From: Podarcis liolepis | Lineage: Eukaryota | DNA: 64,000 nt | NCBI GenBank assembly: GCA_965112155.1 | Contig: OZ218103.1 | Direction: 5' to 3' (one strand) | Part shown: positions 2,977-64,000 of the stretch, in pieces | Numbering within the stretch: position 1 is the stretch's first letter | Layout of the letters: every line of letters begins with the position of its first letter | Made by a program: the position numbers and the translations under genes | The notes under the pieces: model-generated | Told to the model about the DNA's origin: nothing | Databases searched by the model: none | The model's input: the letters and a program-made list of their open reading frames with translations, nothing else

Positions 2977-4520
2977 GCTGGTATCTATCGCTTCTCCTGC
3001 CTTCATCCCACATGCCAATACTCTCTTTTCATTTGAGCAGAAGAGCTTGTATCTTCATTATTGCTCTGTAAATTTGGATTAGCAGAATGACTTTAGATGT
3101 AGATCCACTTTCAATTTGCTGCCTTATTTGTCTATCCAGCTAATTCAAGTTAATTTTATTTCATGATGGAAACAATATTAAAGAGCTCCTTTTTTGCATT
3201 TTAATTGAATTCTGATTTTTCTCCAAATGCGGCTTGACAAAAAGCATTAGTAAAACTTAATTATCTAGTAAATAACAGAGATTTTCTAACATAATGAGAA
3301 AAGTAGAAATTAATTACTGATTAAGCCTATACTGTGCAAGGAACTTGTTCTCAGTTTGTGTGCGTGAGAATGTGGGGGCTGGGGAGGGGAGATTACCAAA
3401 CTCTGCGATAAGTGTCAGTGGAATAAATTGATACATCTGTCAAATTACTTTTGATTTACAGATTGTTTGAGTTGGAATATACTTAAAATATGGCTCTGTG
3501 TCTGAATACACTGAGGAAGCAGCAGAAATTATCACCAGTTCAATGAATTTTTTTACACCTCATTATTGCTTAAGACCTTTTTCTATCCTTCCATTGCGTG
3601 GTTTACTGTAACTTTCTGTGTGCAATAAATAGGTTCAAGATAACAAAATATATAATTGCTTGAATATTAAGGATTTTGTGTTCTGTTTTAAGAACCTCAG
3701 CCCCAGCAAACTTAACAGCCATAAAATTAGGAATGAGGAAATGGACCAGTTCCATTTTGTAATACTTCTGGGATTACACCTGGTTTAATTTTGTTTGGAA
3801 GTTGCAATTCCAGAATGCAGCTGGTGAAATTATGCACCTGTTACCTAAAATTAAATATATTTGTAGTTTCATTTCTGCACAATTAGAAGACTGTTTTTAA
3901 TATAAATGAAAACAGTAATGTTGATTTTTATGTACAGTGGTGACATTGTCTGAAGATACGGTATGTCTTCCTATCATTAGAACTTTTGCAACTGTTTGTA
4001 TTTGAAGGGTGGGTGAGAAGAGCTAACTGCCATCGGGGGGGGGGGGGAGACCCTGTTCTTTCAACAACAACAAAAAGTTCTGATTTTTCACCCCTCAAAA
4101 TACAAACTGTTGCAAACTGAAGGAATCCTCCAGAATCTTTCATGGTTTCTTTTTCCTGTGCAAGCCTATTTGCACAGATCCCCTCATCCAAGGAAAACTG
4201 AGCTGAGAATATTTCTTGCAAATTATACTTTTATCACAAAAAAATAGTATCAAACTGAATCATGGAAAAGAAGTAAAATTCCATCTATTTAGTTTATTAA
4301 ACTGAGCCAGTGGTTCTCAAAGGGTGTGACAGGAGAGCATGGCAAGTGTGGCGGGAAGATTCAAGGACTATTGCAGAAACATTTGACATTTCAGTGTAGT
4401 AAAGTATATATATAAAATTTTTTTGCAAAATATGGATAGATAACTTTTCGAAATGAGAGCAAGAGCATCAAGTGATACTGAGAATACTCCTAGTACTTTT
4501 TTATTTTTAGGATAATCTTA

Positions 4521-4860
4521 GTGGCACTGTGGTCTAAACCACTGAGCCTAGGGTTTGCCGATCAGAAGGTCAGTGGTTCGAATCCCCACGACGGGGTGAG
4601 CTCCCATTGTTCGGTCCCTGCTCCTGCCAACCTAGCAGTTCAAAAGCACATCAAAATTCAAGTAAATAGGTACCACTCTGGTGGGAAGGTAAACGGCATT
4701 TCCGTGCGCTGCTCTGGTTCGCCAGAAGTGGCTTAGTCATGCTGGCTACATGACTCGGAAGCTGTACGCCGGCTCCCTCATCCAGTAAAGCGAGATGAGC
4801 GCCGCAACCCCAGAGTCATTCGCAACTGGACCTAATGGTCAGGGGTCCCTTTACCTTTAC
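4521..4860 (+). mobile_element. Sauria (Squam1-type) SINE
   Basis: tRNA-like head with B box ggttcgaatcc, body shared with five other copies in the window, (ACCTTT)n tail. Confidence 0.92.
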
Positions 4861-7424
4861 TAGTCCTAATCCAGCTTCACCATTTGAACAGAGTGCTGTA
4901 GGTCTCGTTTATAATTATATTTTGGGAATGAGTCATGTTCTTATGTATTGCATTGTATTATACTTTTTGGATGTCCCATGATCACAAGGCAGTTGTGTTC
5001 TATGTTATAAATCAAACACGGCTAGGGGTTTTCTTTCTGTTTTCCAATGTATTTCTTGTCAATAAAAATTTGGTGCAGCGCAAACAAATATTCTGAAAGT
5101 GTGGCCCAGCTTTCTGGACAGCTTGCTTACCAGATTTTTTAAAAGCATACTTTTCCATCCCCATTATGATCATTTGTGCCATTACGCTGCAGACCTCTTC
5201 CACCCATTTTGGGGGGGATTTCTCTTCACATGGGAAGAGGAAGAAGAATGTATTATCTAGCTTTTAAGCATTTCAATGCTATTTCATGCCCCGTTGCTTC
5301 TTCCTCCCCATCCCCAATAGGTTGAAATTCAACCATTCCCTGTACAGTCTCCATTTTAAATTCTAACACCTTTGCTCTTGTCCTCTATTGTGTCACTCTT
5401 ACAAAATGAAAGCACACATTAGCTGGGGAAATATTTGATGCTGAATTTGAGTACTAAGGTTACTTCCAGTGTGTTGTGTACAGTATTATTACTGTTTTTC
5501 AGGTGCGTGCCTTCATCTTATTTGCCAGTGGACAAACTTGCTCTGATGCTACATCTGCCCACTTTTAGTTTGCTTTTTCCTACTGTGCAGGCAGACCTCC
5601 TCCCTACCAGAAGACATTCATTCTTTCATTCTATCTCAAATTATCAGTTGGCTGGAAGCCAGCGAAAGATGCTGATGATTTAACAATGCTATTATTTAGC
5701 TGTCAGAGGCCTTTTAAAACCAGCATCTAGCTTGATAATACCTGTGATTGACCAGTGACCAGGCTTGCAAAGCCATGAAAATGCCTGCAATCAGCTGTTG
5801 CTCAATCAGGGGCATCTCCAAAGACCATGTGTGGGGTGCAATTATGAAGCTGTGGGGTAAGCCTGAATTCCTTAGTTCAAACCTTCTAGGGGACCTGAAG
5901 AACAGCAGTCTGTGAAGCTGCACATTTTTAAAAGGATGCTTTTGAGTGTGCAAACTGCTACGAAGTCAAGCAATTTTGTGATTGCCTTGTGAAATGATTC
6001 AATGTTCTTTTTAAAAAGAGGTCTACTGTTCGCTCAGCTGGTGTTACCCCTGGGGGCTCCTGAAATGTTTTTGAACGCAATCAATAGTGTTCTTTACCAT
6101 GCATGATTTTGGACCTGTAAGCTTTAAAATAAAAATAAAAATCCAGTATTGTGAAACTTTTTAAATGAGCACTGTACATATTTAGAGGTCTTTCAGCCGA
6201 ATAACAAACAAAATTAGGACCGAGGGCACAATCTAAACTCCCTGCCATCAGCCGGATTTATGGAGACTCTTGCATTGCAGCCCTGATTCTCATAATGGCC
6301 ATGGTGGAGAGTCGGGCAGCAGGATGGTCTTTCCTGGTCCTTACATAATAACTGCATCAGTTCCAGGATCCAGGGCTGACTCAGCCCTCCCTGCCCTTGG
6401 AACACCTTATTTCTGGGCTTACCACAGGCTACCATGAGTGGGCAGCCCACCCATTGCTTGTCTGTCTGCCTGCACATTTGATCAGTGAAAGGGGGAGGTC
6501 AGTGTCAAAGGGAAGTCAGCTTAGCTAGGAAAACTGGGGAATGGGAGGGAGGACACCCTCTGCTTAATCTAACCTTTCTAACACAGTGTAAGTGGAGGTG
6601 GATTTCTCTGGTAACCCAGAGAATGTATATAAGCTGTATATAAATGTATATAGACGTTTAATTCAGTGCAGTAGAGCAAGATTGCAACAATTTGAGTAAG
6701 TAAAATAATTATGAACACATCTCTGGTTTCCTCAGTTCAAAGTTTGCACATTGACACATCTCGACCCTGCCCAGCATCTGCCTTTAGGAAGAGTTTGCAA
6801 AGATGTATCGGAAGAGCAACATTTCAGCCCATGTGCCCCAAAATTCCATAGAACTTGAAGCAGTTGTAACAGTGACTAGTGACTCTGGGTACTAGGAATA
6901 GGTTTTCTATGCTGACTCTTGTCTGGCATCACCACCACCATTATTTTGATTCATGTGTTTTGGTATATCTTAGTTGCGCAGTGGGGCTCCTCCCCTCCCC
7001 CACGCACCTCTTGTGATTGGCTAGGGAACAGGGGGTTGAAAGAGATCCCAGAGCAGTGTGCAGGGGAAAGAAAGGAAGGCTCAATCCATCTGGCAGGCCG
7101 AAATGCTTTCCCTGATGGAACAATTGCCTTAGTGAGATGTTCGATTCCTCCTCTTCATTTTTATTTGTGTGTTTGCTACATTGCTAAATCCATTACCTCA
7201 AATGTTGGGGTCATGGAGGCATCCATATATTTTAATGGGAAATTCCATTGTTTCGAAGCTGCGTTGTCATGTTTATATTTGTAATTAAAACCTCTCTCTT
7301 CTCTAAAGGTTGTCAATGATTACACCTGTTGAGGGTAGAAACATCAAATGTTGGAACATTGCGGATGCATTAAGCCACACATTATCCAGTCACAAAAAAA
7401 GATTAAGCAGCATATCAGTTGATG

Positions 7425-7582
7425 TATTTGTTGCTGGGAATCAAGGGGGGGGAGAGAGTTCAGCTGCACTCAGTTCATGCTTGCAGACTTTTCATAGGCA
7501 CCTGGTTGGCCAACGTGAGAGCAGGATGCTAGACAAGATGGGGTTCTGGTCTGATACAGTGGGGCTTTTCTTCTGTTCTTAC
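7425..7582 (+). mobile_element. Degenerate CR1-tailed squamate retroposon fragment
   Basis: ggcacctggttggccaacgtgagagcaggatgctagacaagatggg...ttcttctgttctta; similar to 11060-11187. Confidence 0.55.
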
Positions 7583-9123
7583 CCTGCTTGGTGAAAGGTA
7601 AAACTGCTTACTGGAGTTGTCTTGCTGTAGTAATTCCTATCCTAATCCAACAGGCGGGAACAGTAGACCCCCTCCAACCCGGCTGTGTGGAAGAAAGGAA
7701 ATAGGTCTTGAGTTATCTGCATACAGAACTGGTGTGAACCGAGTGGTTACAGTTCCATTTACTATACTTTCCCCAGTAGTTTTGTGGACGCAAAATGTAC
7801 CATGTGAACCAGTATGGCCAGTGGAAGTAGATTAAAGCACAACATGAAGTAAACAGATGTTTTGCAGTTAGGAAAGTGATGGGGAAATGTGTTGAACAGT
7901 GTGGAACTAAATGATTTAACAGGAAGATGTCTTAACAGCCTGTAAGCAAATCAGCATGAATGCTTATTGTCATATAACATTCCTGCAAACAAATCAGAAA
8001 GCTCAATAAGGACTGGATATATCTGTAAGCTTTGCACAAGGAAATCATGACAAATGTTAAATAAATCATTTTGAGGATCGCCTAGTCTAGGAGGCTCTCT
8101 TCTGCCCTCATGTTAATGGTGTCTATTCTGAAGCCAAATTAGAACAAGAGTAGAAGTTGGAAGCAATGCTTAATGTCAAATATTCTTTGGACAACAAATT
8201 TCTATCAACTTGACTCTCATTATAGGTTCCATAGTTTGACCTGCTGTAAGTGGTCTGCTCTTATACTTCTGTATTCTGGCACTCAATGACCATTACCCAC
8301 TGAAAATACCTTGGTGAATTCTTCTGACGCCATCATTTAAGAATTGCCAAAGAAGGCGTTTTGGCATTGCCGTCATCATCCCAAATTAACTGCACTGTTG
8401 AAAGAACATTTTTGTTAATGTAATTTATTGCTGTTTCCAGTTGAGCAATCCTTTCATTTCTTCTTTATGATATTTCTAATAAAAAATGAAATGAACAGGT
8501 TCTCTTTGTCCTCTGTTTTATCACAAAGCATTGCCAATGCAGTGTTCCTGTTTGGATGATGAATTGTGTAGGCCCTTCAGTAAGTAGATTTGTGTGTTGG
8601 GGTTTATTTTGCTTTTATCATTTGAGAATAGTATCCATGTTTTCCCCCGACACGAGTCTATTGCTTAGCTTCTTTGCGGAGCACTGGGGAGGTACCTTCA
8701 AGAACACCAAAGTTTGAAATTACTCCTTAAAATGCCCCCCCCCCCCCGTAATTCAATATTAGGGGGATTCTTTTTTTCAGCCCAGGGGATACATTCCCTT
8801 CTGACCACCTTGCAAGGGGCACATGCTAGTAGTGGGTGGGACAGAGGCAAAAGTAAATGGAGCAGTAACTTTGGTACTGTAGGTTACTTTCTGAACCCAC
8901 CTACCTCTATATCATCCATCTAGACAAGCAAGAGGCATTATTGGTAGTTCAAGGACACATTTCAGCCAGGCAAAAACACTTGTGCTCCAAGCAGAATCAG
9001 TGAGGTGTGTGACCTGAGAAGACAGAGTGTGGTCTGGGGTGCATTTTGAGGGCCAGAGACAGAGAGACTTGGGGGGCTGCATTTGGCCCCTATTCCTGAG
9101 GTTCCCCACTTCCCTAATTGATC

Positions 9124-9752
9124 GGAGCACAATTCAAAGTGTTGGTGCTGACCTTCAAAGCCCTAAACGGCCTCAGTCCAGTGTACCTGAAGGAGCATCT
9201 CCACCCCATCTTTCGGCCCGGACACTGAGGTCCAGCTCTGAGGAGTTCCCTCACTGCGAGAAGTGAAGTTACAGGGAACCAGGCAGAGGGCCTTCTTGGT
9301 AGTGGCGCCCGCCCTGCGGAACGCCCTCCCATCAGATGTCAAAGAAATTAACAACTATCTGACTTTTAGAAGACATCTGAAGGCAGCCCTGTTTAGGGAA
9401 GCTTTTAATATTTCATGAATTATTCTAGAGTGGAACCTCGAGTTGCGGACATAATCCGTCCTGGAGGCACATCCACAACTCGAAGTGTTTGCATCCAGAA
9501 GCGGCACTTCTGTGCATGTACACAGTTCAATTTAGCCCTTCTGCGCATGTGCAAGCGGCGAAACACAGAAGTAACTGTTCCAGTACTTCCAGGTTGCCGC
9601 GGGACGCAACTTGAAAAGACATAATCTGAAGCGGATGCAACATGAGGTATGACTGTATTTTAATATTTTGTTGGAAGCCTCCCAGAGTGGCTGGGGAAAC
9701 CCAGCCAGATGGGCGGGGTATAAATAAATTCTTATTATTATTATTATTATTA
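9124..9752 (+). mobile_element. L2-type LINE 3' fragment (family A), split by a MITE
   Basis: Decayed ORF2 end (FKVLVLTFKALNGL.P.YLKE...RAF...AP.L.NALPSDVKEINNYLTFRRHLKAALFRE), 3'UTR cccagagtggctggggaaacccagccagatgggcgggg and (TTA)n tail; near-identical to 27010-27286. Confidence 0.85.
9428..9655. mobile_element. Tc1/mariner-pogo (Tigger-like) MITE inserted in the L2 3'UTR
   Basis: TA|gagtggaacctcg ... gaggtatgactg|TA; removing it restores the L2 3'UTR seen at about 27190-27230. Confidence 0.85.
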
Positions 9753-11187
9753 CAACAATAGTTTTTAGGTGCTGGGATTTAGATTTGTGCCAGAGTCATT
9801 CCACCTGCATCCTGTTAAATGTGCATTTGGTACTCTGGTGTCTATGATGATTTAGCTTTTAAGCAGTGTGGCAGCTGAAAGGTGATACTGAAGCAGCCTC
9901 AACTGAGCTGGTCACGAGGGGTCCTTCTTGGTGGCTCATTTCTTCAGCTGTCATCTGCAGGAACACAGTCATGTAATCTTAATGAACAATGTGCAAAGCC
10001 ATTAAAAACTCAATTATGGCTTTCTTTTTTACTGTAGACATGAGAAAATGCAATCATAAAGTGCTGATGTGTAAACACAATAGGCACCATCTGCTACCAA
10101 GTACGATTTCGGCTCTGAAAAGAGGATATATGTTGCAGATGCATCAATAATAGGAGGCTTATCAAGGCATCATTATGCATCAGGGAGGGGGGAAATGAAA
10201 TTTATGAGCATCTAGGGAGCACTTCGTGGTTTAATCCCCCAATTTTAGTGATATATTCAATAACTGTAGCAATGCAAGGACCAGTTTAGGCTTCATTTTT
10301 TTTGTATATATATTTAAAAGAATTCATGTTCTACTTAATCCTGATGATCTAAGCATATAATAAAATTATATATTTCAAAAATCTTGATGAAACTGGGAGC
10401 AACAAATATTAATTATGCTAACCTGTTGATCAAACCACATAAACCAGGCAGACTTGATATCAACTTGCTTGAAAGACCATGTGCCCCTGTGTCTACATTA
10501 ATAAGTACAAAAACCCTGGCCTTTCACAGAATGCAAAATATCTCCTTTCCTCAGCTGTAGGATTATATTGTCTGTAGCCCTGACATGTTTGCAAATTTGA
10601 AGATGAAAATAGCAAATGGCAATATGGATGGATGAATGTTTAATTTAGGGAGGAAAATGATAAAACACAGATATAAGGTTGGCAGTGTTCCAGAAAACGA
10701 GTAGTGCTGGAAATATGAAGAGAAATAATATTTGATGTTATTCTCCGGTTCCTTTCTTCATTCATTCAGATAGAAAGAAATTCAGGTGATTCTTAACAGC
10801 AGCAAAATGATTGTTTATAACCATTCAAGTTTGACCAAAGTTTTCTTCTATGGCTGCAACTTAAAAGACATGTTTGCCGACCAGTCCCATTCAACAATAT
10901 GGCCATATTGTCTGAATGCATTTGGGAATGGGTTGCCTACACTAACTCTGTCACTTATGCATGTTTACAGCTTCTGAACCAATCCTGCATGCATCATCAG
11001 CATGCAACATGGTTGCTCTGGTCTGCCTCCGTGGTCAGAGGCTATAATCCTTTGAAATATCAGTCACTGGAAACCACAGGAGGGAGTGTGCTTTTGTGCT
11101 TGAGTCCTGCTTGTGGGTTTCTCACGGGCATCTGGGTGGCCACTGTGAGAACAGAATGCTCAACTAGATGGGTCATTAGCCTGATCC

Positions 11188-11542
11188 TAGTGGCGGAGGA
11201 AGGGGGTAGGGGGGTCATCACTGGGGGGTGTGTGTGACAAAATGAGTTTTGTTTTGTTTTTTTAATGGGCTTATGAAACCTTTTAGGAGTGACGTGGTGG
11301 CTTAGGCACCGGCAGGTTCCACACTGCCTGAAACGTCTGCCTACTTCCTCTCCCTCAGCTGCCCCACAGCTGAGGGGGAGGTGGCAGAGAAGCTCCAAGC
11401 GTTGGAGAGACTCGTCCTGCTCCCATGGGTGGATCGCCCTCCCCTATGGGCAGCTCGCCATGCCCCCACAGGTGGATTGCCCTGCCCCCAGCTGCAGGAC
11501 ATGCCCCTGCACCAGGCACCCAAGCAGCTAGCTACGCCGCTG
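11188..11542. mobile_element. Non-autonomous hAT element (355 bp) nested in an older retroposon
   Basis: Perfect 8-bp TSD cctgatcc (11180-11187, 11543-11550); termini tagtggcggag / ctacgccgctg. Confidence 0.85.
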
Positions 11543-11762
11543 CCTGATCCTTCTTTATGTGTTTAGTAGTTGGCTAGGTTCAGGTCAGTTTTAAGAGTAT
11601 ATGAATTTAGTGCTCTAAGTCTCTCTACATGGCCCATGTGACTTCTCCCAAGTCCCTCTATCAAGGCTGCATCCTCTTGTCTGATTGGAATATGTTCTTA
11701 AACCATGGCAATGCTTCTTGCTTGCCTCAGTAGAGGACAAAGGATGGTATATTAGATCAGTA

Positions 11763-13699: not shown

Positions 13700-13754
13700 A
13701 TTCAGAAGTGCACTGCCCCCAATATTGCAGGTTGTACACCCCAGACATGATTAA

Positions 13755-14139
13755 GTTAAAGGTAGGTAAAGGACCCCTGGATGGTTAAGTCCAGTCAAAG
13801 GCGACTATGTGGTTGCAGCGCTCATCTCGCTTTCAGGCTGATGGAACTGGCGTTTGTCCACAGACAGGTTTCTGGGTCATGTGGCCAGCATGACTAAACC
13901 GCTTCTGGCAGAACGAAACACCGTGGCAGAAACCAGAGTGCATGGAAATGCCGTTTACCTTCCTGTCGCAGTGGTACCTAATTATCTACTTGCACCGGTA
14001 TGCTTTTGAACTGCTAGTTTGGCAGGAGCTGGGACAGAGCAAGGGGCGCTCACTCCGTTGCGGGGATTTGAACCATCGGCCTTCTGATTGGCAAGCCCAA
14101 GAGGCTCAGTGGTTTAGACCACAGCACCACCCGCATCCC
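13755..14139 (-). mobile_element. Sauria SINE
   Basis: Reverse complement of the family: aaaggtaggtaaaggacccct ... accacagcaccacccgcatccc. Confidence 0.9.
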
Positions 14140-14254
14140 AACAAGATAAGCATCCTTCATTGTAAATGGCAAGTGGCTAAATGGCATTGGTGATATTTGT
14201 ACTGGGGACTTGCTGATTTTCCACAGCTTGGTCTCTATTTAGGTATTTAGGATG

Positions 14255-21058: not shown

Positions 21059-21580
<522 letters not shown>

Positions 21581-23098: not shown

Positions 23099-24619
23099 TT
23101 TTAAGGTGTCAAAAAGTAACATATGCATCAGGTCTGGCTAGCAGTACTGAGTACTTGTAAGCCCTGACACCGAGGATATTTAATCATTTGAGGTAGATGA
23201 GATTTCAGTGTTTTTCTTCTCTGGTCAGCATATTCCCTTAATATGGTTTACCTTAGGCTACTCTTTTCATCTTCTCTCAAGTTGTTTCAGTTTTGCCACA
23301 AATTTTCACATTGTCCCAGATTGGATGTCAAAGTCACTACTCAGCTATGTTGGGACATCCCAAAGTCCCAAAGAATGACTAATGCTGCATATTACATAAA
23401 TCACTTGCAACAACTTAATACTCGCAGTAATATCTTTGAAAACTTGCCTAAACGGAAAGAAATATTGTGTGTTACATCAAATGCTTTTTTTAATTAGGCA
23501 TATGCATATGAATTAGAAATGAGAAATACATTCATTTCATTTCTGATTATTAATCCTTTAAGCATAATTATATTTTGACAGAACAGTGAAAGATTATAAA
23601 TGAAATAAATGAGGAAGGTGACACAGTTTCATTTTAAACTGAAAGGGCTTCATTATTATTATTATTTTTTTAAAAAGTCTAATTCCAAACACAGAATATT
23701 TATAAATAAATTAACTTGGAAATGTTAATGTTTTTAAGACGTTTTTCACAAGGTTAATTGGCAAACATTCCTCTGTTGCTATGAACTGAAAGCCTCTAAA
23801 AGGTGAAGAAGGCAGGGAAGCATCATTGGGCATCAAAGGGGTTGCCATTTTGATTTATCCCATGTTTCAACAACAGCAAAGCCACCTTCTGTGATACTTC
23901 CTGGGTGCTCTATTTAGGGATCAGCTACATGGGAGCTGCTATTGAAATCAAATTGGAGATAGTACTCTGTTCCAGTGAGTACCAACACAGACACACACAA
24001 TTATCTTACAGATAACTTTATAAATTCAGTATTATTTTTAAAATATTACAGTTATCTATAAATATACTGAATAAATGCATTGCATATGTACATACATCGC
24101 ATACATGGTAAAACATAAAATTGTCAAATTTATGATCTATTTCATATATCTCCTAATAACAGATATGGATTGACCAGATCTTGCCCTTTATCATTCTAAC
24201 AAGCTCCATATTTCTGCAAACCTGACATGGCACTATTTATCTTCTCTAATTAACTTTGTCAACCTAACCTACGGACAGATGGATAGTGACATGTTCTGCA
24301 TGCCCAAATACGGCTCAGGTAGTTTATCCAAAGGTGTTCCCAGTGTGAAGTTCCCCTCCTTAAGTGTTGTATGCAATATTTGATGACTCAACATAATTAT
24401 ACTATGAGCTTTAGCATTTTTAATGACACAGAAGGAGAATTTACAGGGCAGCCATTTTGTTTGCGTGTTTCTTATAACACAGAGACTGCAACCTAATCCC
24501 AGGGAGTAAGCCCCATTGAATTCAATAGGCCTTGTTCATGAGTAGACATGGGTAGGACCGTGCTGTTAGTTCTGGCACTGAAATCCTTGGTCTTTGTCTG
24601 TTTTTATTAGCATTTAACT

Positions 24620-25366
24620 CAGCGGCGTAGCGTGGGTTATCAGCACCCGGGGCAAGGCAAGTAATTTGCGCCCCCTAACCCGGGGCAAGGCAATTAATTT
24701 GCGCCCCCTAACCCGGGGCAAGGCAAGTACAGTAATTTACTCTCCCAAGCAGCAGCAGCGAGGCTTCTCTTTCCCCCGCGCTCTCCTGGAGCTGCCTCTT
24801 TTCTTTCCTTTCGCTTTCTCTCCTTAATTGATTCCTCCTCCACACCGCAGCGTTTCCTGGCTGCTCCCCCACCTTCCCCTCTCTCTCCTCCTCGCTCTGC
24901 TTGCCTTGCCCTGCCTGAGGGCGCCCTGAGGAGACTCCGCTCTCCTTTTTGACCAGGCGAGGTGGAAAAGTCTCTTCCCGCCCCCTCGCCAGACTCCCTG
25001 CTCGGATCGGCTCACTAGCCAGGCGGCCAGTGGAGAGAGAGCCACAATTACCATAAAGCTCCTCTCCCTCCACTTCGCCAAGCTGTCAAAGCCCCGGCAG
25101 CAGCAGCAACGGCAGCAGCAGGCGCAGCCAGACCCCCGCCAGCCAGCCAGCCCGCCCGCCCGCCCGCCCGGCTTCCTCTCCTTTTTTTGCCCGGCAGAAG
25201 GCTTCGCTCTCCCCCTTCTGCGACCTCCTCGCCAAGCCGAGCGAGCGCAGGCTCCCTAACCCGTGGATTTTAGTAGGGGCAGAGAGCTGCTAGTGCGAGC
25301 GCGCCCCCCGTCCATGTTGCGCCCGGTGCGGCTGGCCCCCCTGGCACCCCCCACGCTACGCCACTG
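24620..25366. mobile_element. Young non-autonomous hAT element (747 bp) with GC/CpG-rich internal segment
   Basis: TIRs cagcggcgtagcgtggg / cccacgctacgccactg (16/17); perfect 8-bp TSD atttaact (24612-24619, 25367-25374); 33-bp subterminal tandem units at 24645-24738. Confidence 0.93.
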
Positions 25367-25723
25367 ATTTAACTCATTTAACTTGGCTTCATGCTTATGC
25401 TTAAGAGCAAATCAGTGTGGTTCCTCCCCTGCTCCCCCCCAAAGCTTCTTCCAAGTAGAAGTGTGATAGATATTTTCCGACATTATGTTCAGTGGAGACA
25501 TATTGGAACAGGACAATGTGTGTATTTTTCTTCCTTGCGCATTAATGAATAAACCTTCAAGGGGTTAAATTGGCTAGCTTATGAAAGCAATCAATATGTT
25601 GAGTTGTGAATCTCTGTCCCTGGATTTTGAACATTTTCAGCTTCAGCTATGCGAGAAAGAATAGGCGAGAGATCCTTTCAGACAGCTTACTTAAGCAGCT
25701 TGTTTCCCCCCTGTGTATTTCAG

Positions 25724-25805
25724 GTGATATTTGAATCGGTTTCGTTGAAGGGACACCCTGGGTACATAGCTGTGGATGAAGTCAGAGTTCTTGCCCATCC
25801 ATGCA
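25724..25805 (+). CDS. PTPRT: PTPRT coding exon (exon 4), end of MAM domain
   Basis: tttcag|GTG acceptor, A|gtaagc donor. 82 bp, [27 protein letters not shown]. Phase 0 start matches the previous exon. Confidence 0.96.
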
Positions 25806-27343: not shown

Positions 27344-27819
27344 GTGATTGTGTTTGAACTCAAAGTCATCAACCATTTTTCCTTTCCTTTCCTTTATTCA
27401 TTTCTTCTTTTCGTTCCTTTTTAAAACTGTAGAGGACTCAGTAGCAGTAGCATTGCCATCAATTAAAAAAAGGCCCATTTTGATACACTAAAGCTAAAAG
27501 GAATGGAAAGTACCAACTGTCATAACGGTTTGCTGTAAATATTCTGCAAAAGCAGTATTGTTTTATATCAAGGCTTCTCCATTTCAGGTGACAGATGAAT
27601 GACCCTGTCTCAGCCAACAGCTAGTACATCAATAAATTGTGACATGGATAAACTACCGGCCAGCTAAAAGGGATGGCATAACTCTCTTTGACTCTGCTGG
27701 CCAAGTGATACTGCTCACCAAATTGTAGCTGGCCTTTCATTGTGACAGAGCCTGCGAAGCTATGGTCCTCCGTACGTTGATAGACTCCTCATTATTATCC
27801 ATGATAATTGATCATGGTA

Positions 27820-28185
27820 GGGATGTGGGTGGCGCTGTGGTCTAAACCACTGAGCCTTGGGCTTGCCGATCAAAAGGTCAGTGGTTTGAATCCCCACAAT
27901 GGGGTTAGCTCCTGTTGCTCGGTCCCAACTCCTGCCAACCTAGCAATTCGAAAGCACCCCAAAAAGTGCAAGTAGATAATAGGTACTGCTCCGGCGGGAA
28001 GGTAAACAGCATTTCCGTGCGCTGCTCTGGTGTTGGTGTTCCGTTGCACCAGAAGCGGCTTAGTCATGCTGGCCACATGACCTGGAAAAACTGTCTGCAG
28101 AGCGGACAAACGCCGGCTCCCTCAGCCTGTAAAGCGAGATGAGCGCCCCAACCCCAGAGTCATTGTCAGGGGTCCCTTTACCTTT
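27820..28185 (+). mobile_element. Sauria SINE with TSD
   Basis: Family sequence with ACCTTT tail; 14-bp TSD taattgatcatggt (27805-27818, 28185-28198). Confidence 0.93.
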
Positions 28186-29312
28186 AATTGATCATGGTGG
28201 CTGAGGCTGATTGGAGCTGCCCATTATGTGTTTCCCCCCGTTATAGCAAATAGTAGAAAAGGGGCTTGGAGGAAAAAGTTAAACCCTCCCTGTGCCAGTG
28301 CTGCAGCAATGATCTGATTGCAATGCTGCAGAGCTGGCCCATTCATGAGGCAAGCTGAGGTGACTGCCTCAGGTATCACGATCCACAGGCACAGCATATC
28401 CTGTCTCCAATGAATTCATTGCCCAGTGCTGCTGCCACAGCAACAGCCGTGCCATGCTCTTTGGGAGCTGGATCTGCTGACATCTTGGTAGTGCCTCTCC
28501 ACAAAATAGCCATTTTACAGAAGGAAAAATGGTGATGCTCAGGGCCTTTCCTCCCCAAAACCAGGCAAAGCCCCTACGTGCAACGCAAAACAAATAAAAC
28601 ATACAAAAAAGCAAGGAACAGTCCTGCAAAAAGAAAAGGCAGCACCCCTTCAAACAACAAAGATGCCAGTTAATCTCTTTAAATATAGAATATTGGGATG
28701 GGCCTTGGTGGGCACCACAGTGGGGTTATCTGAGGGTGTCCATGAGCACCACATTGAAGACCCCATATATAAAGCCTCTATGCTCTGTGTGCTTACTTGA
28801 ATGTTGGCCCCATTGAGTTCGATTGAATTTGGTAATGGTAATATTTTAATAGGGTTGGACCATATCAAGTTGCTGTTGTTAGTTGTCTGTGAGTAGGAAC
28901 CCAGGCTGCTTAGTAAAAAATATCTTGGCTCAGTTTTCCTTTGCCTACTTTTCCTTGTGAATGCCATATTCATTGATTTTGTACATATTATGTTATATGT
29001 ATTATATGTTTACATCCTTACACAGAAGAAATTTGCTATTTGCTTCCATCGTATATTAACTGAAATATATTACTGGGGAATGTTGAATCCTTTTGGTGCG
29101 GAAGCGTTATTTATAGCCCATTATCTGTGCCGAGATGGTTGATGCTTTTGTTTTCATACTGTTAGCTGAAAGCCATACTGTAGTATTTTAAACAAACCCC
29201 AAACTCAACAGTGCTATGATGAGTAGTTTGTTCTGTGGGAAACCGGACATCCTTGTTAAGAATGGCTGGTTCTCATAGCATACATATGAACTGTGAAGCT
29301 CTACCCAGATAA

Positions 29313-39029: not shown

Positions 39030-39385
39030 AAAGGTAAAGGTAAAGGGACCCCTGACCATTAGGTCCAGTTGTGACTGACTCTGGGGTTGCGGCACTCAGC
39101 TCGCTTTACTGGCCAAGGGAGCCGGAGTACAGCTTCCGGGTCATGTGGCCAGCATGACTGAGCTACTTCTGGCGAACCAGAGCAGCAAACGGAAACACTG
39201 TTTACCTTCCCACCGGAGCAGTACCTATTTATTTACTTGCACTTTGATGTGCTTTTGAACTACTAGGTTGGCAGGAGATGGGACCGAGTAACAAGAGCTC
39301 ACCCCATCGCGGGGATTTGAACCACGACCTTCTGATCGGCAAGCCCTAGGCTCTGTGGCTTAACTCACAGTGCTACCCATGTCCC
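39030..39385 (-). mobile_element. Sauria SINE with TSD
   Basis: (AAAGGT)n tail at left; TSD cggtattata (39020-39029, 39388-39397). Confidence 0.93.
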
Positions 39386-39564
39386 TGCGGTATTATATGT
39401 CACTATAAAGGCAGAGCAATCCTATGGCAGAAGAATCACCACCCTGCTGGGCTAGAGCCATCCAAGATGGAGGGGTTGCATTTTACATTTACCTTTACAT
39501 ATATCTCTTTTTTCTACTTGGCTTTTCTTTTTCATTCCACCTCCCAATGGTTTCAGAAGGCAAA

Positions 39565-43790: not shown

Positions 43791-45068
43791 ATTAGCCATT
43801 TTGGCTACACGCCACTGGCAAGTAGCTCTTAGCTAAAGAATGAGATACAATATGGACCACTTCCCTTAAGAATCTTCAGGAATTTTTACAGGTATTAGCC
43901 TAACAGGAGCCTCTACAAAACAAAGCTGCAAGAGACATATTTAATGCTGGCAACCAGAACAACTTGACTGTCTGTCCCTGGCTGCCCATGGACGACTTGT
44001 CCCCCCACCCTCTTTCCTTCTGCATCCTCTTTGGGACTTGTCCTTAGTCTGTCTGACTTGAATGGATGGATTCCTTTTCTGAGGCTTCCCTGGTTATTTG
44101 TCTCATGTTCTTTGCCTGTACCACAGACCTCATTCTGTCCTTGATCCTCTGATATTGAAAGGCATTTAGAGCAGTAAATATTCTGCAACAAATTAGTTTA
44201 GAGCCATGCACTCATAGTATAGGATAGATGAAGGGAGGAAAACCTTTATGTGATCTGACAGATGAAGGGGGGAACCTTCATGGGATATGTCGTTGCTATC
44301 ACTAGTTGTGTTACTAGCAAAATGTCTGGGGAACAAATTGGGCTTTATGCAGATAAGTATTATAGTAGTTAACACTGATGGGAGGAGCTTACAGAGCAGG
44401 GCACAGTAAACTGGTGTGTCCTATTAGAGTTAATGTTTCTTGCACTTGCCCTGTCTATCCCTTTGCCTTTTCTTCAGGCAGATTATAACCTTGTTTGTTT
44501 TCAATGTATTTTCTGGTAAGTCTGCCGCAGGAAGTGTGTGTGTATGCATTTGAAACAGATGCAAATAGCAGAAAATTCTTGGGTTATCTATCCTTAGATC
44601 CCATAAATCAGACTTAGTGTGTGCTTTACTGCCCTATTTGGTAGCCTGAAGCTAGTATTGAATTGCACAACGGTACACAATATGCAAATTGTTTGTTCCT
44701 CAGCAGGCCTGTGTTGCTTTTTTCTGCTTTCTTTCTTTCCCCCATAATAGCAGATAAAAACTTTTTGTAATACCTCTCTGATCTCAATTTCCTTTGGAAC
44801 TTTGCAGAAACTCTTGGAAGCTGCTAGCAACATTATTTAGAAGTAGTTTATCATATAAATATGATGATTAATCCAAAGTTTTGGTGAATTTGTGTCTCTT
44901 TACAGACAGTAGGTCATATACAATACCTTTTTCTATGCTGTTGAAGGCAGATTCCAAGAATGTTAGTGTGTACTTTTCCCATCCCTGTAATACATGTGAT
45001 TATCTCATTGCACCTGGTTTCCAATTGCTCTTTATGTTTGACACTTTATCATGTATGTATGTATGTAA

Positions 45069-45395
45069 GGGACGCGGGTGGCGCTGTGGGTTAAACCACA
45101 GAGCCTAGGACTTGCCGATCAGAAGGTTGGCAGTTTGAATCCCCGCAATGGGGTGAGCTCCCGTTGCTCGGTCCCTGCCCCTGTCAACCTAGCAGTTTGA
45201 AAGCACGTCAAAGTGCAAGTAGATAAATAGGTACTGCTCCGGCAGGAAGGTAAACGGCGTTTCTGTGCACTGCTCTGGTTCGCCAGAAGTGGCTTAGTCA
45301 TGCTGGCCACATGACCCAGAAGCTGTACGCCGGCTCCCTCGGCCAATAAAGCAAGATGAGCGCCGCAACCCCAGAGTCGGTCACGACTGGACCTA
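45069..45395 (+). mobile_element. Sauria SINE, 3' end lost in the assembly gap
   Basis: gggacgcgggtggcgctgtgg head and family body. Confidence 0.93.
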
Positions 45396-45523
45396 NNNNN
45401 NNNNNNNNNNNNNNNNNNNNNNNNNNNNNNNNNNNNNNNNNNNNNNNNNNNNNNNNNNNNNNNNNNNNNNNNNNNNNNNNNNNNNNNNNNNNNNNNNNNN
45501 NNNNNNNNNNNNNNNNNNNNNNN
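45396..45523. other. Assembly gap (N run)
   Basis: Ns in the sequence. Confidence 0.99.
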
Positions 45524-46693
45524 TAACCCCCCAAAGACAATAGAAATGTAAGTTAGCAATAGAACTGCTTCATTGAACACTGCCATCCATCATTCTGCAA
45601 GGACTTCACTCTCTCTATATGTGTGTCCTTGTGTAGATCTGTTTTCTCACCAGTTGTCTATAACCCTCAACACATGTTTGCAAAAAAACCACACCCTTTG
45701 CTCACCAACAGCTCTCAAAGTTCCAATAAGTGGAAAACTAGGCATCCGATTTAAGTGTTTTGGTGAGAGAGAAAGATAAAAAGGTAATGAATAACAGAAA
45801 CAAAACCCTGTTGTCAAGAAGAAAGATTATACAGGATCTATGGACTAGGTTAATAGAGGTCTCGTAAGGTCTAGCTTAGTGGTAGAGCACCTGCTTTTTA
45901 TTGGGGCGATCCCTCGTCAATATCCTGTAACGCTGCTGCTCATGAGTGTGGATAATACTGAGATAGATGAACCAATGGGCAGACTCAATATAAAATAGCT
46001 TCCTCTGTTCTTATGAGTTGTAGCCTTGAAGAGTATTAGGAGAGCTGGTGCAGCATAATGGCCAATTGACTAAGTTGTGGATCCTGAATTATTCATTTTT
46101 AATCGTGCTTCTGCTATGGACTCGCTAGGCGCTCTTTGGCAAGCTGCACTCTCCCAGTTTCAGACCCCTTCTCCTCTGGGAGATAATATTACTAATTATA
46201 AGGTTATTATAAGGATTACATCCAGATAATGCATTTGAAGAGCTATGAGCACTTAGGTGCAAGTGCTGTACAAAGTGCTTATTAATTGTTTTTCTCCCGC
46301 TGCAAGTCTTGGTGGAAACATAGTGGAACATGGGAACAGTGAATGAAGATTAGCCACATATTATGAAATAGACAGGGAAATTATTCTATGACATGATGAG
46401 GTGATGAGGTGCAGCTACCTCTGCACACATCAGAGAGACATCATGAGCATGGTTTCTGAGTAAATGTTTAGTGGATTGCAGCCAGTGGCTGTGTTCAAAG
46501 CATTATTTTTTGGAAGCAATTGATTCAATAAAAATCTGTAGGATCCTATTCCAAGAAAATAGGTTTGGATCTAGGCCAAGAAGGATGATTTCCCCAACTC
46601 TGTTTTAAAAGTAGCTCCTTTTAAAATGGAATTGCTGTGATGGAATGTAATGGAAGGACGGTGAGCAGAGGTTTTGATTGTGTCTAAAGTTTA

Positions 46694-47046
46694 GGACCCG
46701 GGTGCGGCTGTGGGTTAAACCACAGAGCCTAGGACTTGCCTATCGGAAGGTCGGCAGTTCGAATCCCCACGACGGGGTGAGCTCCCGTTGCTCGGTCCCA
46801 GCTCCTGCCCACCTAGCAGTTCGAAAGCACGTCAAAGCGCAAGTAGATAAATAGGTACCGCTCCGGCGGGAAGGTAAATGGCGTTTCCGTGCGCTGCTCT
46901 GGTTCGCCAGAAGTGGCTTAGTCATGCTGGCCACATGACCCAGAAGCTGTATGCCGGCTCCCTCGGCCAATAAAGCGAGATGAGCGCCACAACCCCAGAG
47001 TCGGCCACGACTGGACTTAATGGTCAGGGGTCCCTTTACCTTTACC
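46694..47046 (+). mobile_element. Sauria SINE with TSD, young
   Basis: Most CpGs retained; (ACCTTT)n tail; TSD ctaaagttta(gg) at 46684 and 47046. Confidence 0.94.
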
Positions 47047-48067
47047 TAAAGTTTAGGAAAGACTCCTACCTGAAACCCTGGAGTCTGCCAGTCAGTGAAG
47101 ACATTATTGAGCTAGCTGGGCCAATAGTGGGAATCAGTTTTGAGGCAAAACAGCTTTCCATCTTCTTTTAAAAGTCGTAGGATTACTTTGGCTACATGTG
47201 GAAATGTCACAAAAGAAAGACCAAAGTGGTAACCTTGAGTCTGACTTTTCTTTCTCTACCCCAAAGCTATAACTTCTATAATTAACTTTCATCACTTTCC
47301 TCTGGCTTTTCAGCATATGACATGGATGAGTACCTATTCCGAGACACTCCATAGAAATAGGGACACAAGGAGAGAAGTATATGAGGCAGTAAGCTTTGCA
47401 TATTCCTCAGATTTCCTTGATTTGAGTAGCTTTACTGTAAAGTGTTCAGGAATTAATGGAGTTGTGGAGGGGAGCATAGTCACAATGCAATGTACTGTGA
47501 CAGGGTTGTGGGATTTGGGGCTGTCTGGCTTCCTCACTCCCACCAGCTTTCAGGCCTAATTTATATGCGACAGAAGCCATGAATGAAGAATTTATGTCCC
47601 CATGTGCCCACACCAGGTTTAAATGCACTTAACGTGTGTGCATGCTAGGGACGGATGAATCTGTTCATTTCTCCTTTCTCTAAGTTTCTCATTCCAATAT
47701 TAACTTCAGTACTCCACATTTCCACATTGGTTTTCTTTCTTCTTCTTCTTTTGAATGTCCTCATTAAAATTCATTAGCATTCAGTGTGGATTTTCCTCAT
47801 ATGCACATTTCTACAAGCAACCCCCCCAATGCATTTTTTGTATATTATTTTCATTAATCTATGCATTTTGCGGGGGACACACAGTTGCTAACATAAGCAT
47901 TTCTGTACACATTACTTGGCTGGATAACTGCATTGCAAAATCCAGAGCAGTGTGAATTTTGAAATTGCATTTATTATGCAGGTTTGTCTTTAAATGCAAA
48001 CTGAACTACATTTCTCTCTCCTCTCCCCTCTATTCCTAGTGCCAGCACACTGGATGCTAATGAATAA

Positions 48068-53064: not shown

Positions 53065-53198
53065 NNNNNNNNNNNNNNNNNNNNNNNNNNNNNNNNNNNN
53101 NNNNNNNNNNNNNNNNNNNNNNNNNNNNNNNNNNNNNNNNNNNNNNNNNNNNNNNNNNNNNNNNNNNNNNNNNNNNNNNNNNNNNNNNNNNNNNNNNN
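53065..53198. other. Assembly gap (N run)
   Basis: Ns in the sequence. Confidence 0.99.
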
Positions 53199-61551: not shown

Positions 61552-61942
61552 TGTTGGGAAACTGCCAGGGAGATAGTGTCCATCATGAGCCCCCAAGCCG
61601 GAGTTCTGGACGATCCATCGGCCTCCCGTAGACAGGCAGATCCAGCAGTTAGCGACACGAAGCCTCTGGAAATTCCTAGCCACATTCCAGGGCTGGGTGT
61701 ACACTGTTTATCAGCAGAAACACAGCCAAAAGCTTGCACCGCAGAAGAGCATAATTTACAGACTTTATTAGCGTTTAACAGAACAAAAGAAAACGTGACC
61801 GTTCTGTGTCAGCATCTTCGGCCAACTGAGAAAACGAAAGGAAAAAACAGCAAGCATAAACATCCTGTGAATAGGACATGCGCAGACTCTGTTGCTTACA
61901 AAAGCCTGCTCCCTTTTAAGGTGGAACGGAAATATCCTAACA
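61552..61942 (-). mobile_element. 3' LTR of the copia element (391 bp)
   Basis: On the - strand it starts TGTTAGGA immediately after the PPT and ends TCCCAACA (7/8 inverted termini). AATAAA at 61764-61769 (-). The pol stop codon falls in the first bases of the LTR. Confidence 0.85.
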
Positions 61943-64000
61943 TCCTCCCCCTTTCCGTGTAACCTGTTGTACCTGTGGTTCACTCAATTGCAACCTTTGT
62001 ACATAAACCTTATGTTGTTCTTTGTTAACAACCTTAGACAACAGATCAGCAGGGATTTCATTTCCTGCCATGTAGGACACCTGAATCAGTCCTTTCTGAA
62101 TACACTCTCTTGCACGATGTAGCTTAATCTGCAAGTACTTGGTTCTCTGCTTGCAACTCTCGGAGTTCAGCAAAGCCAAACACGATCTATTGTCTTGATA
62201 CACTTGTATAGGACATTTCACAGAAACCCCGATGTCCTTAAACAGTTGCATCAACCATTCACAATCCATGAGTGAAAATGACAGAGCATTGAGTTCTGCT
62301 TCACAGGAACTTAGGCTCACTGTTGTTTGCTTCTTGCACAACCAGTCAAACAGGCAGTGGTTGTACATGTAGCATACTCCAGAAGTGCTTGTACCATCCG
62401 TGGTGTCACTTCCAAAACTTGCATCTGCAAAGATTTCAAGACCTCCAGTCTTCTGACTGGTGAACCTCAGCCTGTAGTGCATAGTCCCTTTCAAATAGCG
62501 GGCTATGCGCTTCAGAGCTTTCCAATCCTGAACCGTAGGATTGTTGGCATGCCTGCTAAGCAAATTACAGCTTACAGCTATGTCAGGTCTTGAACATCTG
62601 GCAATGAAATTCAGCTTGCCTAGAATGCATCTATATAGCGTTGTGTCAGAAAACGCTTCAGCAGTACTGTCTACCTGGTAACCTGTCACCATCGGTGTGT
62701 CTGCTGGGTTTGCATCAACCAAATTCAACCTGGTTAATACATCAGCAATTTTCTGTGTTTGGTGTACCAGAAAATTACCTGCTTGGTCCTTCTCCACCTG
62801 CAGAGAAAGATAGTTGGATACCTCACCAAGATCCTTCATGTCAAAGTGCTCCTTCAGTTGAGCTAGGGTGCTTTGGTAAAAAGCCTGATTCTTCCAAAAC
62901 ATCAGAAGATCATCAACAAAACATAAACAATACAGTTTGTTTTGCCCCTCCTCCTTGACAAACACACATGGATCAGCTTTGCCCTGGTGAAAACCTAGAG
63001 AAAGCAATGTCTCAGTGAGTTTTGTGTTCCAACACCTGGCACTCTGTTTGAGACCATATAAGGATTTCCGCAGTTTACAGACCATACCCTTCTGTATCTC
63101 CATCCCATCAGGTGGAAGCATGAACAGCTCCTCCCCCAAAATCCCATACAAAAAAGCTGTATTAATGTCGTGGTGAGAAACATGCAGTTTCTCCTCCGCA
63201 GCGATCTTGAGCATCAGCCGAATGCTCTCATATTTGACTGTGGGTGAGTAGGTCTCATGGTAATCCTGTCCTGGTACCTGTGAAAAACCTCTGGCAACCA
63301 ACCTGGCTTTGTGTCTGACTACCTTGCCATTCTGGTCTGTCTTGGCCTTGAAGACCCATTTGCTGCCAACCAGTCTCATTCCTGGGACTACCGGTACCAA
63401 TTCCCAAGTTTGGTTCCTGTTCAAGGAATCAACTTCAGCCTTCATGGCATTAAGCCAAGGCTCAGCATCTTTAGAGGTTAACTCCTGAACCTCTTTGAAG
63501 CTTGAAGGTTCCCATACCTTCTCTGAGCTACTAAGAACAGCTGTTGCTGTCTTAGCAAACTCATCAGCATACCTCTTTGGAGGTCTGCCCTTGGTCGCCC
63601 TTTCAGATCTGCGTACTAGACGCAAGTCTTCTGGACTCATCTCCTCTTTCTTAGGAGAAAAATGACCAATGGTGAACAGTGGTTCTTCCAGTTCATTGTC
63701 AGACGCATCAGATGGTCTGACTGAGGCCTGTGCGCTCTTGTAGTCTGCTGTGTCATCACTTTCACTGACATCAGCAGCAGCGCCGCCCACTGAACTGGAA
63801 TCCGAACTCTGATCATCATCATCCTCATCCTCATCCTCATCCTCATCAGCAGCAGCAGCTTCCTCAGCTTTAGCTGCTTGCTTGACATCACCTTCATCCT
63901 CCTCTGGGTAACTCTGGAAAATTCCCACATTTTCCCCCCACTTAGGATTGTACTCAACACTCCTTGTGAACTTAATGGACTTAGAGTCAGTCATCCATAC
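61937..64000 (-). CDS. Ty1/copia pol polyprotein, 3' part (integrase C-terminal tail, reverse transcriptase, RNase H); runs off the window
   Basis: Stop-free frame of at least 685 aa, open to the window edge. Copia motifs: WLNAMKAEVDSLNRNQTWELV, KWVFKAK, KARLVARGFSQVPGQDY.ETYSP, D..TAFLYG, LRKSLYGLKQSARCWN, FVDD, RPDIA; RNase H FADASF, SSCEAE, YQDN, ADLLSK. Domain order IN-RT-RH. Confidence 0.97.
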   Translation of the reverse strand, partial: VWMTDSKSIKFTRSVEYNPKWGENVGIFQSYPEEDEGDVKQAAKAEEAAAADEDEDEDEDDDDQSSDSSSVGGAAADVSESDDTADYKSAQASVRPSDASDNELEEPLFTIGHFSPKKEEMSPEDLRLVRRSERATKGRPPKRYADEFAKTATAVLSSSEKVWEPSSFKEVQELTSKDAEPWLNAMKAEVDSLNRNQTWELVPVVPGMRLVGSKWVFKAKTDQNGKVVRHKARLVARGFSQVPGQDYHETYSPTVKYESIRLMLKIAAEEKLHVSHHDINTAFLYGILGEELFMLPPDGMEIQKGMVCKLRKSLYGLKQSARCWNTKLTETLLSLGFHQGKADPCVFVKEEGQNKLYCLCFVDDLLMFWKNQAFYQSTLAQLKEHFDMKDLGEVSNYLSLQVEKDQAGNFLVHQTQKIADVLTRLNLVDANPADTPMVTGYQVDSTAEAFSDTTLYRCILGKLNFIARCSRPDIAVSCNLLSRHANNPTVQDWKALKRIARYLKGTMHYRLRFTSQKTGGLEIFADASFGSDTTDGTSTSGVCYMYNHCLFDWLCKKQTTVSLSSCEAELNALSFSLMDCEWLMQLFKDIGVSVKCPIQVYQDNRSCLALLNSESCKQRTKYLQIKLHRARECIQKGLIQVSYMAGNEIPADLLSKVVNKEQHKVYVQRLQLSEPQVQQVTRKGGGC
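61943..61956 (-). other. Polypurine tract of the copia element
   Basis: GGAAAGGGGGAGGA directly abutting the TG of the 3' LTR. Confidence 0.9.

What the first reader, a model, noticed from the sequence alone, without database searches (positions are those of the whole stretch)
24620..25366. Pack-type hAT transposon carrying about 500 bp of CpG-island-like cargo in PTPRT intron 3
Seen: near-perfect TIRs, a perfect 8-bp TSD, two complete 33-bp units (acccggggcaaggcaagtaatttgcgcccccta) and a third unit that breaks after ...taattt (24738) and resumes as ccctaacccg at 25254. The intervening 24739-25253 is GC/CpG-rich and non-coding, with (GCA)n, (GCCA)n/(GCCC)n runs, GC boxes and pyrimidine tracts; it reads like a vertebrate promoter or 5'UTR rather than transposon DNA, in an otherwise CpG-depleted intron. 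Established: host-sequence capture by non-autonomous DNA transposons is well known in plants (Pack-MULE, Pack-CACTA) and much less described in amniotes. Inference: an active lizard hAT family captures and moves regulatory DNA, here dropping a ready-made CpG island about 360 bp upstream of exon 4.
Basis: partly seen in the sequence, partly recalled or inferred. Interest (0 to 1): 0.75.

Follow-up and report, generated by a model that had tools for sequence, protein, structure and literature searches.

The report
Young transposon subfamily carrying captured DNA
A recently inserted 747-base jumping element in an intron belongs to a multicopy subfamily whose GC-rich middle was likely captured from elsewhere in the genome, a behaviour already described in frogs and lizards, and nothing found here shows that it regulates the host gene.

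Summary
The element is real: 24620-25366, 17-bp TIR (1 mismatch), perfect 8-bp TSD, the window's only CpG island. A relative's single-copy contig holds the empty site with one TSD copy. The 515-bp interior is not the standard interior: short family members skip it and vastly outnumber it. It is not a one-off capture either: it runs at about 50-75 times single-copy depth in organism A, is joined to the left end in organism B, and its words are held under 11 organism labels. One 9,960-bp public contig is colinear with interior 24962-25247, stops matching 6 bp before the junction, and continues 550 bp without transposon end: a candidate donor homologue, gene unnamed. Best reading: one earlier capture into a hAT MITE, then amplification; this copy is one insertion, likely methylated (4 of 7 differences lose a CpG, p=0.012) and neutral. 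Precedents: frog Pack-hAT-N8_XT (5'UTR cargo, 3 copies) and Anolis hobo families. Only the copy number and species spread look new. Interest 0.4.

The parts
24612..24619 (.). Left target-site duplication (ATTTAACT)
   Evidence: single copy at the empty site in run X1 record 1
24620..24636 (+). Left terminal inverted repeat, 17 bp, one mismatch to the right arm at 24623
24637..24682 (+). Left subterminal part shared with the very abundant short family, including 33-bp unit 1 (24645-24677)
   Evidence: summed depth about 1e6 in X1 and 4e5 in X2 in bin 24627-24683
24678..24738 (+). 33-bp unit 2 and broken unit 3 (local duplication beside the interior)
   Evidence: X2 record 16 bridges 24699-24782
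24739..24961 (.). Interior, left part: pyrimidine-rich, multicopy, no outside homologue found
   Evidence: depth; P0001 begins only at 24962
24962..25247 (.). Interior, right part: colinear with a non-transposon-ended public contig (spurious ORF P0001); best-conserved core about 25038-25094
25254..25349 (+). Right subterminal part; 25273-25313 is a subfamily-specific piece that many short members skip
   Evidence: joints to 25273 and 25314
25350..25366 (-). Right terminal inverted repeat
25367..25374 (.). Right target-site duplication
25724..25805 (+). Host exon (82 bp, end of MAM domain of a type-IIB receptor tyrosine phosphatase; PTPRT exon 4 by recall), 358 bp downstream
21164..21435 (+). 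Upstream host exon (about 272 bp, MAM domain; exon 3 by recall)

Best explanation
This is a young non-autonomous hAT-type insertion belonging to a multicopy subfamily whose 515-bp GC-rich interior was likely captured once from a non-coding host locus and then likely spread by transposition, and this copy is probably methylated and neutral. Shown: insertion into an empty site with an 8-bp duplication; a far larger pool of short relatives that lack the interior; the interior at tens of times single-copy depth in another organism; a homologue of interior 24962-25247 that continues past the junction into unrelated sequence. Inferred: in an ancestral short element, a break or stalled fork inside the subterminal 33-bp unit was repaired by template switching to a promoter/5'UTR-like locus, duplicating the unit and replacing about 5 bp with the interior; an unseen hAT transposase acting in trans then amplified this form before or around the split of the species that hold it; capture did not happen at this site.
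For: Empty site: X1 record 1 (depth 11) joins 24611 to 25367 with 612 and 70 letters on the two sides; flanks differ by 24 of 975. Short members: 14 of 15 joints shown (27 in all) skip 579-632 bases across the interior, in raw reads with 50-62 letters on the short side from 12-22 starts; loose ends after 24682 read on directly into the motif found here at 25260. Multicopy interior: X1 record 3 (24875-25005, 0 differences) depth 813 and record 5 (25158-25254) depth 561, i.e. about 74 and 51 times the flank contig; interior/ends depth 0.0013 in X1 and 0.019 in X2. X2 record 16 bridges the left junction with 40 and 44 letters. 20 runs, 11 organism labels, 12 studies hold 0.20-0.54 of 50 words (3 of the 20 laid). 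Outside homologue: P0001, E 2.5e-7, one contig of 9,960 bp; frameshift alignment score 219 vs 76.6 +/- 8.3 (max 101 of 40 shuffles), 59 of 91 codons identical, ending at 25247; its residues 100-277 do not align to the element on either strand (52 and 35 vs 62 +/- 9). No interior copy elsewhere in the window. CpG loss: 4 of 7 differences from the majority of both DNA runs remove a CpG (p=0.012), two of them polarised as derived by P0001. RNA of organism B: interior/ends 0.011, not above the DNA ratio, no pile-up of starts.
Against: The donor's DNA, gene and species were not obtained; P0001 is one spurious ORF on one contig, and three further protein searches found no second homologue. The left 223 bp of the interior have no outside homologue. 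No donor-type loose end is among the 24 of 287 shown. The right junction is not bridged by 31 letters in any piece shown (best 8). A 10-bp motif at 24673, 24706 and 25254 would equally let the short form arise by deletion from a long one. Contig depth is a rough copy proxy and the source individual's run was not listed. The CpG count uses 7 of 18 element rows from a table showing 40 of 91 rows; only 3 of the 4 losses are transitions, one difference (24623) gains a CpG, and 50 CpGs remain. The RNA run has no reads on the flanks, so it says nothing about this locus.
Confidence: 0.66

Rival explanations
1. The interior is native non-coding DNA of a longer hAT parent (autonomous or long non-autonomous); the short family arose from it by deletion between the repeated 10-bp motifs, and P0001's contig is a diverged long copy. 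No host capture.
For: Repeated motif at 24673, 24706 and 25254 permits the deletion; interior is multicopy and in many organisms; most Anolis non-autonomous hATs are deletion derivatives (PMC3014272 passage); ends are as CpG-rich as the interior.
Against: Interior-bearing copies look young and uniform (0 differences over 131 bp at depth 813) inside a diverse family with many linkers; P0001 homology ends 6 bp from the junction and is uneven, with a core of 17 of 19 identical codons; a 9,960-bp unbranched contig suggests low-copy DNA; no transposase in any frame.
Confidence: 0.15
2. The interior was captured, but from another repeat (for example the GC-rich 5' UTR promoter of a LINE or an LTR) or is a mosaic of two donors, not from a host gene's regulatory region.
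For: Anolis hobo cargo often contains other TEs (PMC3014272); in X2 depth falls from 4,000-10,700 over 24741-25025 to 660-1,500 over 25026-25253, so the halves have different histories; left part lacks a homologue.
Against: P0001 spans the depth step and has no Pfam match over 277 aa; island-like conservation fits a constrained host element (inference).
Confidence: 0.13
3. One reading: this copy acts as an unmethylated CpG island, alternative promoter, enhancer or cryptic exon that changes the host phosphatase gene.
For: Meets both usual CpG-island sequence thresholds and is the only such island in 64 kb; 358 bp from an exon; three + strand acceptor-like sites (24956, 24992, 25197) are as pyrimidine-rich as the true acceptor (97-99th percentile of 2,174 YAG sites); homeodomain- and TALE-like motifs in the core (motifs recalled).
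Against: CpG loss excess in this copy; no strong splice-donor pattern between 24620 and 25723 (simple pattern); family-wide RNA share not above DNA share and no start pile-up in one run; absent in a relative 2.5% diverged.
Confidence: 0.06

Closest known systems
Multicopy Pack-TIRs, e.g. Pack-hAT-N8_XT of Xenopus tropicalis (Tan et al. 2021, PMC8277862)
   Same: Non-autonomous hAT ends around a few hundred bp of non-coding cargo (291 bp of CAPSL 5'UTR there), small loss of TE sequence at the break, later transposition, GC-rich bias of multicopy cargo.
   Different: Only 4 multicopy cases in 100 genomes, the example with 3 copies; here about 50-75 copy-equivalents in one organism and presence in several. 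That study listed 0 Pack-TIRs for anoCar2 and thaSir1, with only 77 and 3 DNA TEs counted. Here the parent locus is not identified.
Anolis carolinensis hobo_AC and hobo-N1..N13_AC families (Novick et al. 2010, PMC3014272)
   Same: Lizard hAT families with similar ends, different interiors, incorporation of genomic DNA, and amplification of cargo-bearing forms.
   Different: Those are 1.3-15 kb and their cargo was marked by old TE fragments; the passages read mention no exon or CpG-island cargo (0 hits for 'exon', 'CpG'). TIRs in the table rows seen differ from this one; the table was seen only in part.
Plant Pack-MULE / Pack-CACTA
   Same: Capture of GC-rich 5' gene fragments by non-autonomous TIR elements, often multicopy (as summarised in PMC8277862).
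   Different: Different superfamily: 8-bp TSD and 17-bp TIR here.
Domesticated hAT/Harbinger/Kolobok MITE enhancers in Xenopus (PMC12676858, abstract only)
   Same: Non-mammalian MITEs spreading potential regulatory motifs.
   Different: There, open chromatin was measured and the motifs are the MITE's own; here there are no chromatin data and the motifs lie in likely captured DNA.

Membership tests
hAT superfamily (non-autonomous) | 8-bp target-site duplication | tested here: met
   single copy at the empty site
hAT superfamily (non-autonomous) | Short TIR beginning CAG/TAG | tested here: met
   17 bp, 1 mismatch; Anolis hAT TIRs also begin CAG/CAR
hAT superfamily (non-autonomous) | Cognate autonomous element with hAT transposase and the same TIR | not testable with these tools
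   no genome held; none in the 53 window frames scanned; subgroup (Tip100-like by recall) untested
Pack-TIR (Tan 2021) | Consensus TIR element exists without the internal sequence | tested here: met
   14 of 15 joints shown skip the interior; ends exceed interior 50-770 fold in depth
Pack-TIR (Tan 2021) | Parental copy of the internal sequence identified, not associated with the TIR element | tested here: inconclusive
   P0001 contig is colinear over 24962-25247 and lacks the right end; its DNA, left side, gene and species were not obtained
Pack-TIR (Tan 2021) | Internal sequence is not itself TE-derived | tested here: inconclusive
   no Pfam or Rfam match; no Dfam/Repbase search available
Pack-TIR, multicopy class | Several copies at different loci with distinct TSDs | tested here: inconclusive
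   multicopy by depth and one bridged junction; individual loci and TSDs not seen
Pack-TIR, single-copy gap-filling class | Cargo-free element at the orthologous site and donor nearby | tested here: not met
   orthologous site is empty in organism A; no donor in the 64-kb window
Pack-TIR (Tan 2021) | Microhomology between donor and element at breakpoints | not testable with these tools
   donor DNA not available
CpG island | Length, GC and CpG o/e thresholds (thresholds recalled: 500 bp, 55%, 0.65) | tested here: met
   515 bp, 0.639, 0.68
CpG island | Unmethylated, open chromatin, promoter activity | not testable with these tools
   indirect only: CpG loss 4 of 7, p=0.012; no start pile-up in one RNA run of another organism

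The most novel reading that the evidence does not exclude
A hAT MITE captured a conserved promoter or enhancer module of a host gene and spread it, CpG island included, to tens or hundreds of sites across a species radiation, with some copies active as regulatory elements: a Pack-MULE-scale amplification of regulatory DNA in an amniote, with present/absent alleles as built-in controls.
Probability: 0.15. Interest if true: 0.72.

Novelty: new member of a known kind. Interest (0 to 1): 0.4.

Why it matters
Multicopy Pack-TIRs were counted as rare in animals (4 in 100 genomes, about 3 copies), but the two squamates in that screen had almost no annotated DNA transposons. A cargo-bearing hAT subfamily at tens of copies in several species would show that squamate MITEs amplify captured non-coding DNA on a larger scale. 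Many near-identical CpG-rich copies in different places, absent in close relatives, would directly test whether CpG-island sequence alone resists methylation when it sits inside a transposon. For the host gene itself, nothing found here suggests a consequence.

Tried and rejected
No whole genome held, so no genome BLAST. Window self-search: no second interior copy. Rfam: one weak RNase MRP hit outside the element, E 0.65. Coding cargo rejected: 0 Pfam families in 8 interior frames and P0001; Atlas blank for P0001 1-100. Further homologues: none with P0001 at near lengths, the longest minus frame at near lengths, or the two-sequence profile against 1.84 billion proteins; the other frames were not searched. 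Collection scans empty: viral contigs, metagenome contigs. Motif search of papers gave one raven primer sharing 14 bases only, taken as chance. Inverted 12-mer between interior 24900-24911 and the 33-bp unit: 25 of 1,000 shuffles reach 12 or more; weak, not used. No RNA holder on record was listed; not used as evidence. X15 was indexed as holding 0.26 of the words but showed no depth over 24684-25082 when laid, and its matches at 25095-25129 are a simple-repeat hit; a filter removes human-like records, so the hole is neither for nor against. Four look-ups of earlier findings returned nothing. Literature: nine searches listed no paper describing this family; subscription papers and Repbase/Dfam were not searched.

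Full report
Observation. The element spans 24620-25366 (747 bp) between two perfect copies of ATTTAACT, with 17-bp inverted ends that differ at one base. It is the only pair passing a window-wide scan for an 8-bp duplication around inverted ends with at most 2 mismatches in 11. Two 33-bp units (24645-24710) are followed by a third that breaks at 24738; the unit's end motif resumes at 25254. The interior has GC 0.639 and CpG o/e 0.68; the ends are equally CpG-rich; the flanks are depleted (0.19, 0.27); no other CpG island lies in the window. None of 8 interior frames has a Pfam match. The element lies between two MAM-domain exons (about 21164-21435 and 25724-25805) of a type-IIB receptor phosphatase related to, but not identical with, PTPRM and PTPRK.

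It is an insertion. No genome was held, so I used public runs. In run X1 (organism A) one contig of depth 11 covers 24000-24611 and continues directly at 25367: the site is empty, with one copy of the duplication. Flanks differ by 24 of 975 bases (2.5%). This also excludes the single-copy gap-filling route of Tan et al., which predicts a cargo-free element at the orthologous site, and no donor lies in the window.

The family mostly lacks the interior. Summed contig depth at the ends is about 700,000 in X1 and 270,000 in X2; the interior is 0.0013 and 0.019 of that (median of 7 interior bins, 2 simple-repeat bins left out). Fourteen of the 15 joints shown (27 in all) skip the interior; contig joints have short sides (18-30), but raw reads of X23 give 50-62 letters from 12-22 starts. 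Loose ends after 24682 read on into the motif that follows the interior here.

But the interior is itself multicopy. In X1 one contig covers 24875-25005 with no difference at depth 813, and another covers 25158-25254 at depth 561: about 74 and 51 times the flank contig (a rough proxy, not a count). In X2 (organism B) a contig bridges the left junction with 40 and 44 letters; the right junction is crossed by only 8 letters in the pieces shown. Twenty runs under 11 organism labels and 12 studies hold 0.20-0.54 of the 50 sampled words, none all of them; I laid 3 of the 20 plus one raw RNA run. In X2 depth drops about fivefold after 25025, which suggests variant subfamilies or filtering; unexplained.

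Where the interior comes from. A search with the + frame 24930-25256 gave 1 hit among 537 candidates: P0001, an unnamed 277-aa ORF seen on one 9,960-bp contig (E 2.5e-7). It is a chance reading of non-coding DNA (no Pfam). A frameshift-aware alignment places its residues 1-94 on 24962-25247, score 219 against 76.6 +/- 8.3 in 40 shuffles, with 59 of 91 codons identical, three frameshifts and a core of 17 of 19 identical codons. The match ends 6 bp before the junction, and the remaining residues (about 550 bp) match nothing in the element on either strand. That is the expected footprint of a donor locus in a more distant species. It is one record, its DNA could not be read, the left 223 bp of the interior are not covered, and three further protein searches, four collection scans and a motif search of papers found nothing more. 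No donor-type loose end is among the 24 of 287 shown, where human-like records are filtered. The donor gene is therefore unnamed.

Direction. A 10-bp motif at 24673, 24706 and 25254 lets the short form arise from the long by deletion, so the sequence alone does not fix the direction. Capture is favoured because interior-bearing copies are uniform inside a diverse family, the outside homologue runs past the junction, only about 5 bp of the unit are missing, and the unit is duplicated beside the break, as fork-stalling models predict (inference; model).

Function of this copy. Of 18 element rows in the difference table (40 of 91 rows shown), I kept the 7 where most depth in both DNA runs differs from the window; I dropped 11 (24880, 25105, 25219 one run only; 25122, 25145 RNA simple-repeat hits; 25310-25313 and 25342-25343 subfamily blocks). 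Four of the 7 (25044, 25072, 25291, 25333) remove a CpG, against 15% expected (p=0.012); P0001 shares the majority state at 25044 and 25072, so the window's states are derived. Only three are transitions and one difference (24623) gains a CpG, so this is a weak sign of germline methylation. About 1% divergence means recent, not necessarily current, activity. In RNA run X23 (organism B, 12% read) the interior/ends ratio is 0.011, not above DNA, with no pile-up of starts; it has no reads on the flanks, so this locus is untested. Three acceptor-like sites lie in the interior in the host gene's sense, but no strong donor pattern precedes the exon.

Comparison. Tan et al. 2021 (PMC8277862; I read parts 1-3 of 10, twelve passages and searched the supplements for five terms) report 370 animal Pack-TIRs, 208 of them hAT, four multicopy, including a frog hAT with 291 bp of 5'UTR in three places; both squamates scored 0 with 77 and 3 DNA TEs counted. 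Novick et al. 2010 (PMC3014272; passages only) describe Anolis hAT families that incorporate and amplify genomic DNA. PMC12676858 was seen as abstract and outline, PMC4636899 as one passage; other papers as search listings only. Nine searches listed no description of this family; Repbase and Dfam could not be checked, and it may be catalogued there.

Verdict. It works like a multicopy Pack-TIR; membership is met for the element, the cargo-free family and the empty site, and inconclusive for the parental locus. Capture from a host non-coding locus then amplification, neutral here: 0.66. Native interior of a long hAT: 0.15. Captured from another repeat or mosaic: 0.13. Regulatory effect on the host gene: 0.06. 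New member of a known kind; interest 0.4. The boldest reading, a conserved regulatory module spread to many sites and active at some, has probability 0.15 and interest 0.72.

Noticed in passing
window 11188-11542: A second, older-looking 355-bp element with the same type of ends, flanked by an 8-bp duplication CCTGATCC (11180-11187, 11543-11550), with a different interior and 22-bp repeats at 11412-11490. My note gave its start one base off.
   Followed up: partly
window 61940-64000, minus strand: Open frame of 687 aa with RVT_2 (Ty1/copia-type reverse transcriptase, E 9e-69), running off the window end: a young LTR retrotransposon in the intron.
   Followed up: no
window 24456-24569: A short interspersed repeat just upstream of the element (depth up to about 1,400 in X1 against 11 in the flank).
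   Followed up: no
window 4521-4860, 13751-14142, 27817-28186, 39030-39386, 45068-45395, 46691-47050: Six copies of a roughly 330-370 bp repeat, 72-92% alike; SINE-like by size, not classified.
   Followed up: no
window 25026-25253 versus 24741-25025, run X2: Interior depth falls about fivefold after 25025 in organism B, and in X1 a variant skips 24806-24846; several interior variants seem to exist.
   Followed up: no
run X15 on window 24684-25082: Indexed as holding 0.26 of the interior's words but no contig was laid there; a filtered, human-like transcript contig is one possibility and would be a lead to the donor gene.
   Followed up: no
window 25273-25313: A 41-bp piece present in some short members and skipped by others, possibly an earlier small capture.
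   Followed up: no
window 45396-45523 and 53065-53198: Two assembly gaps (262 N in all).
   Followed up: no
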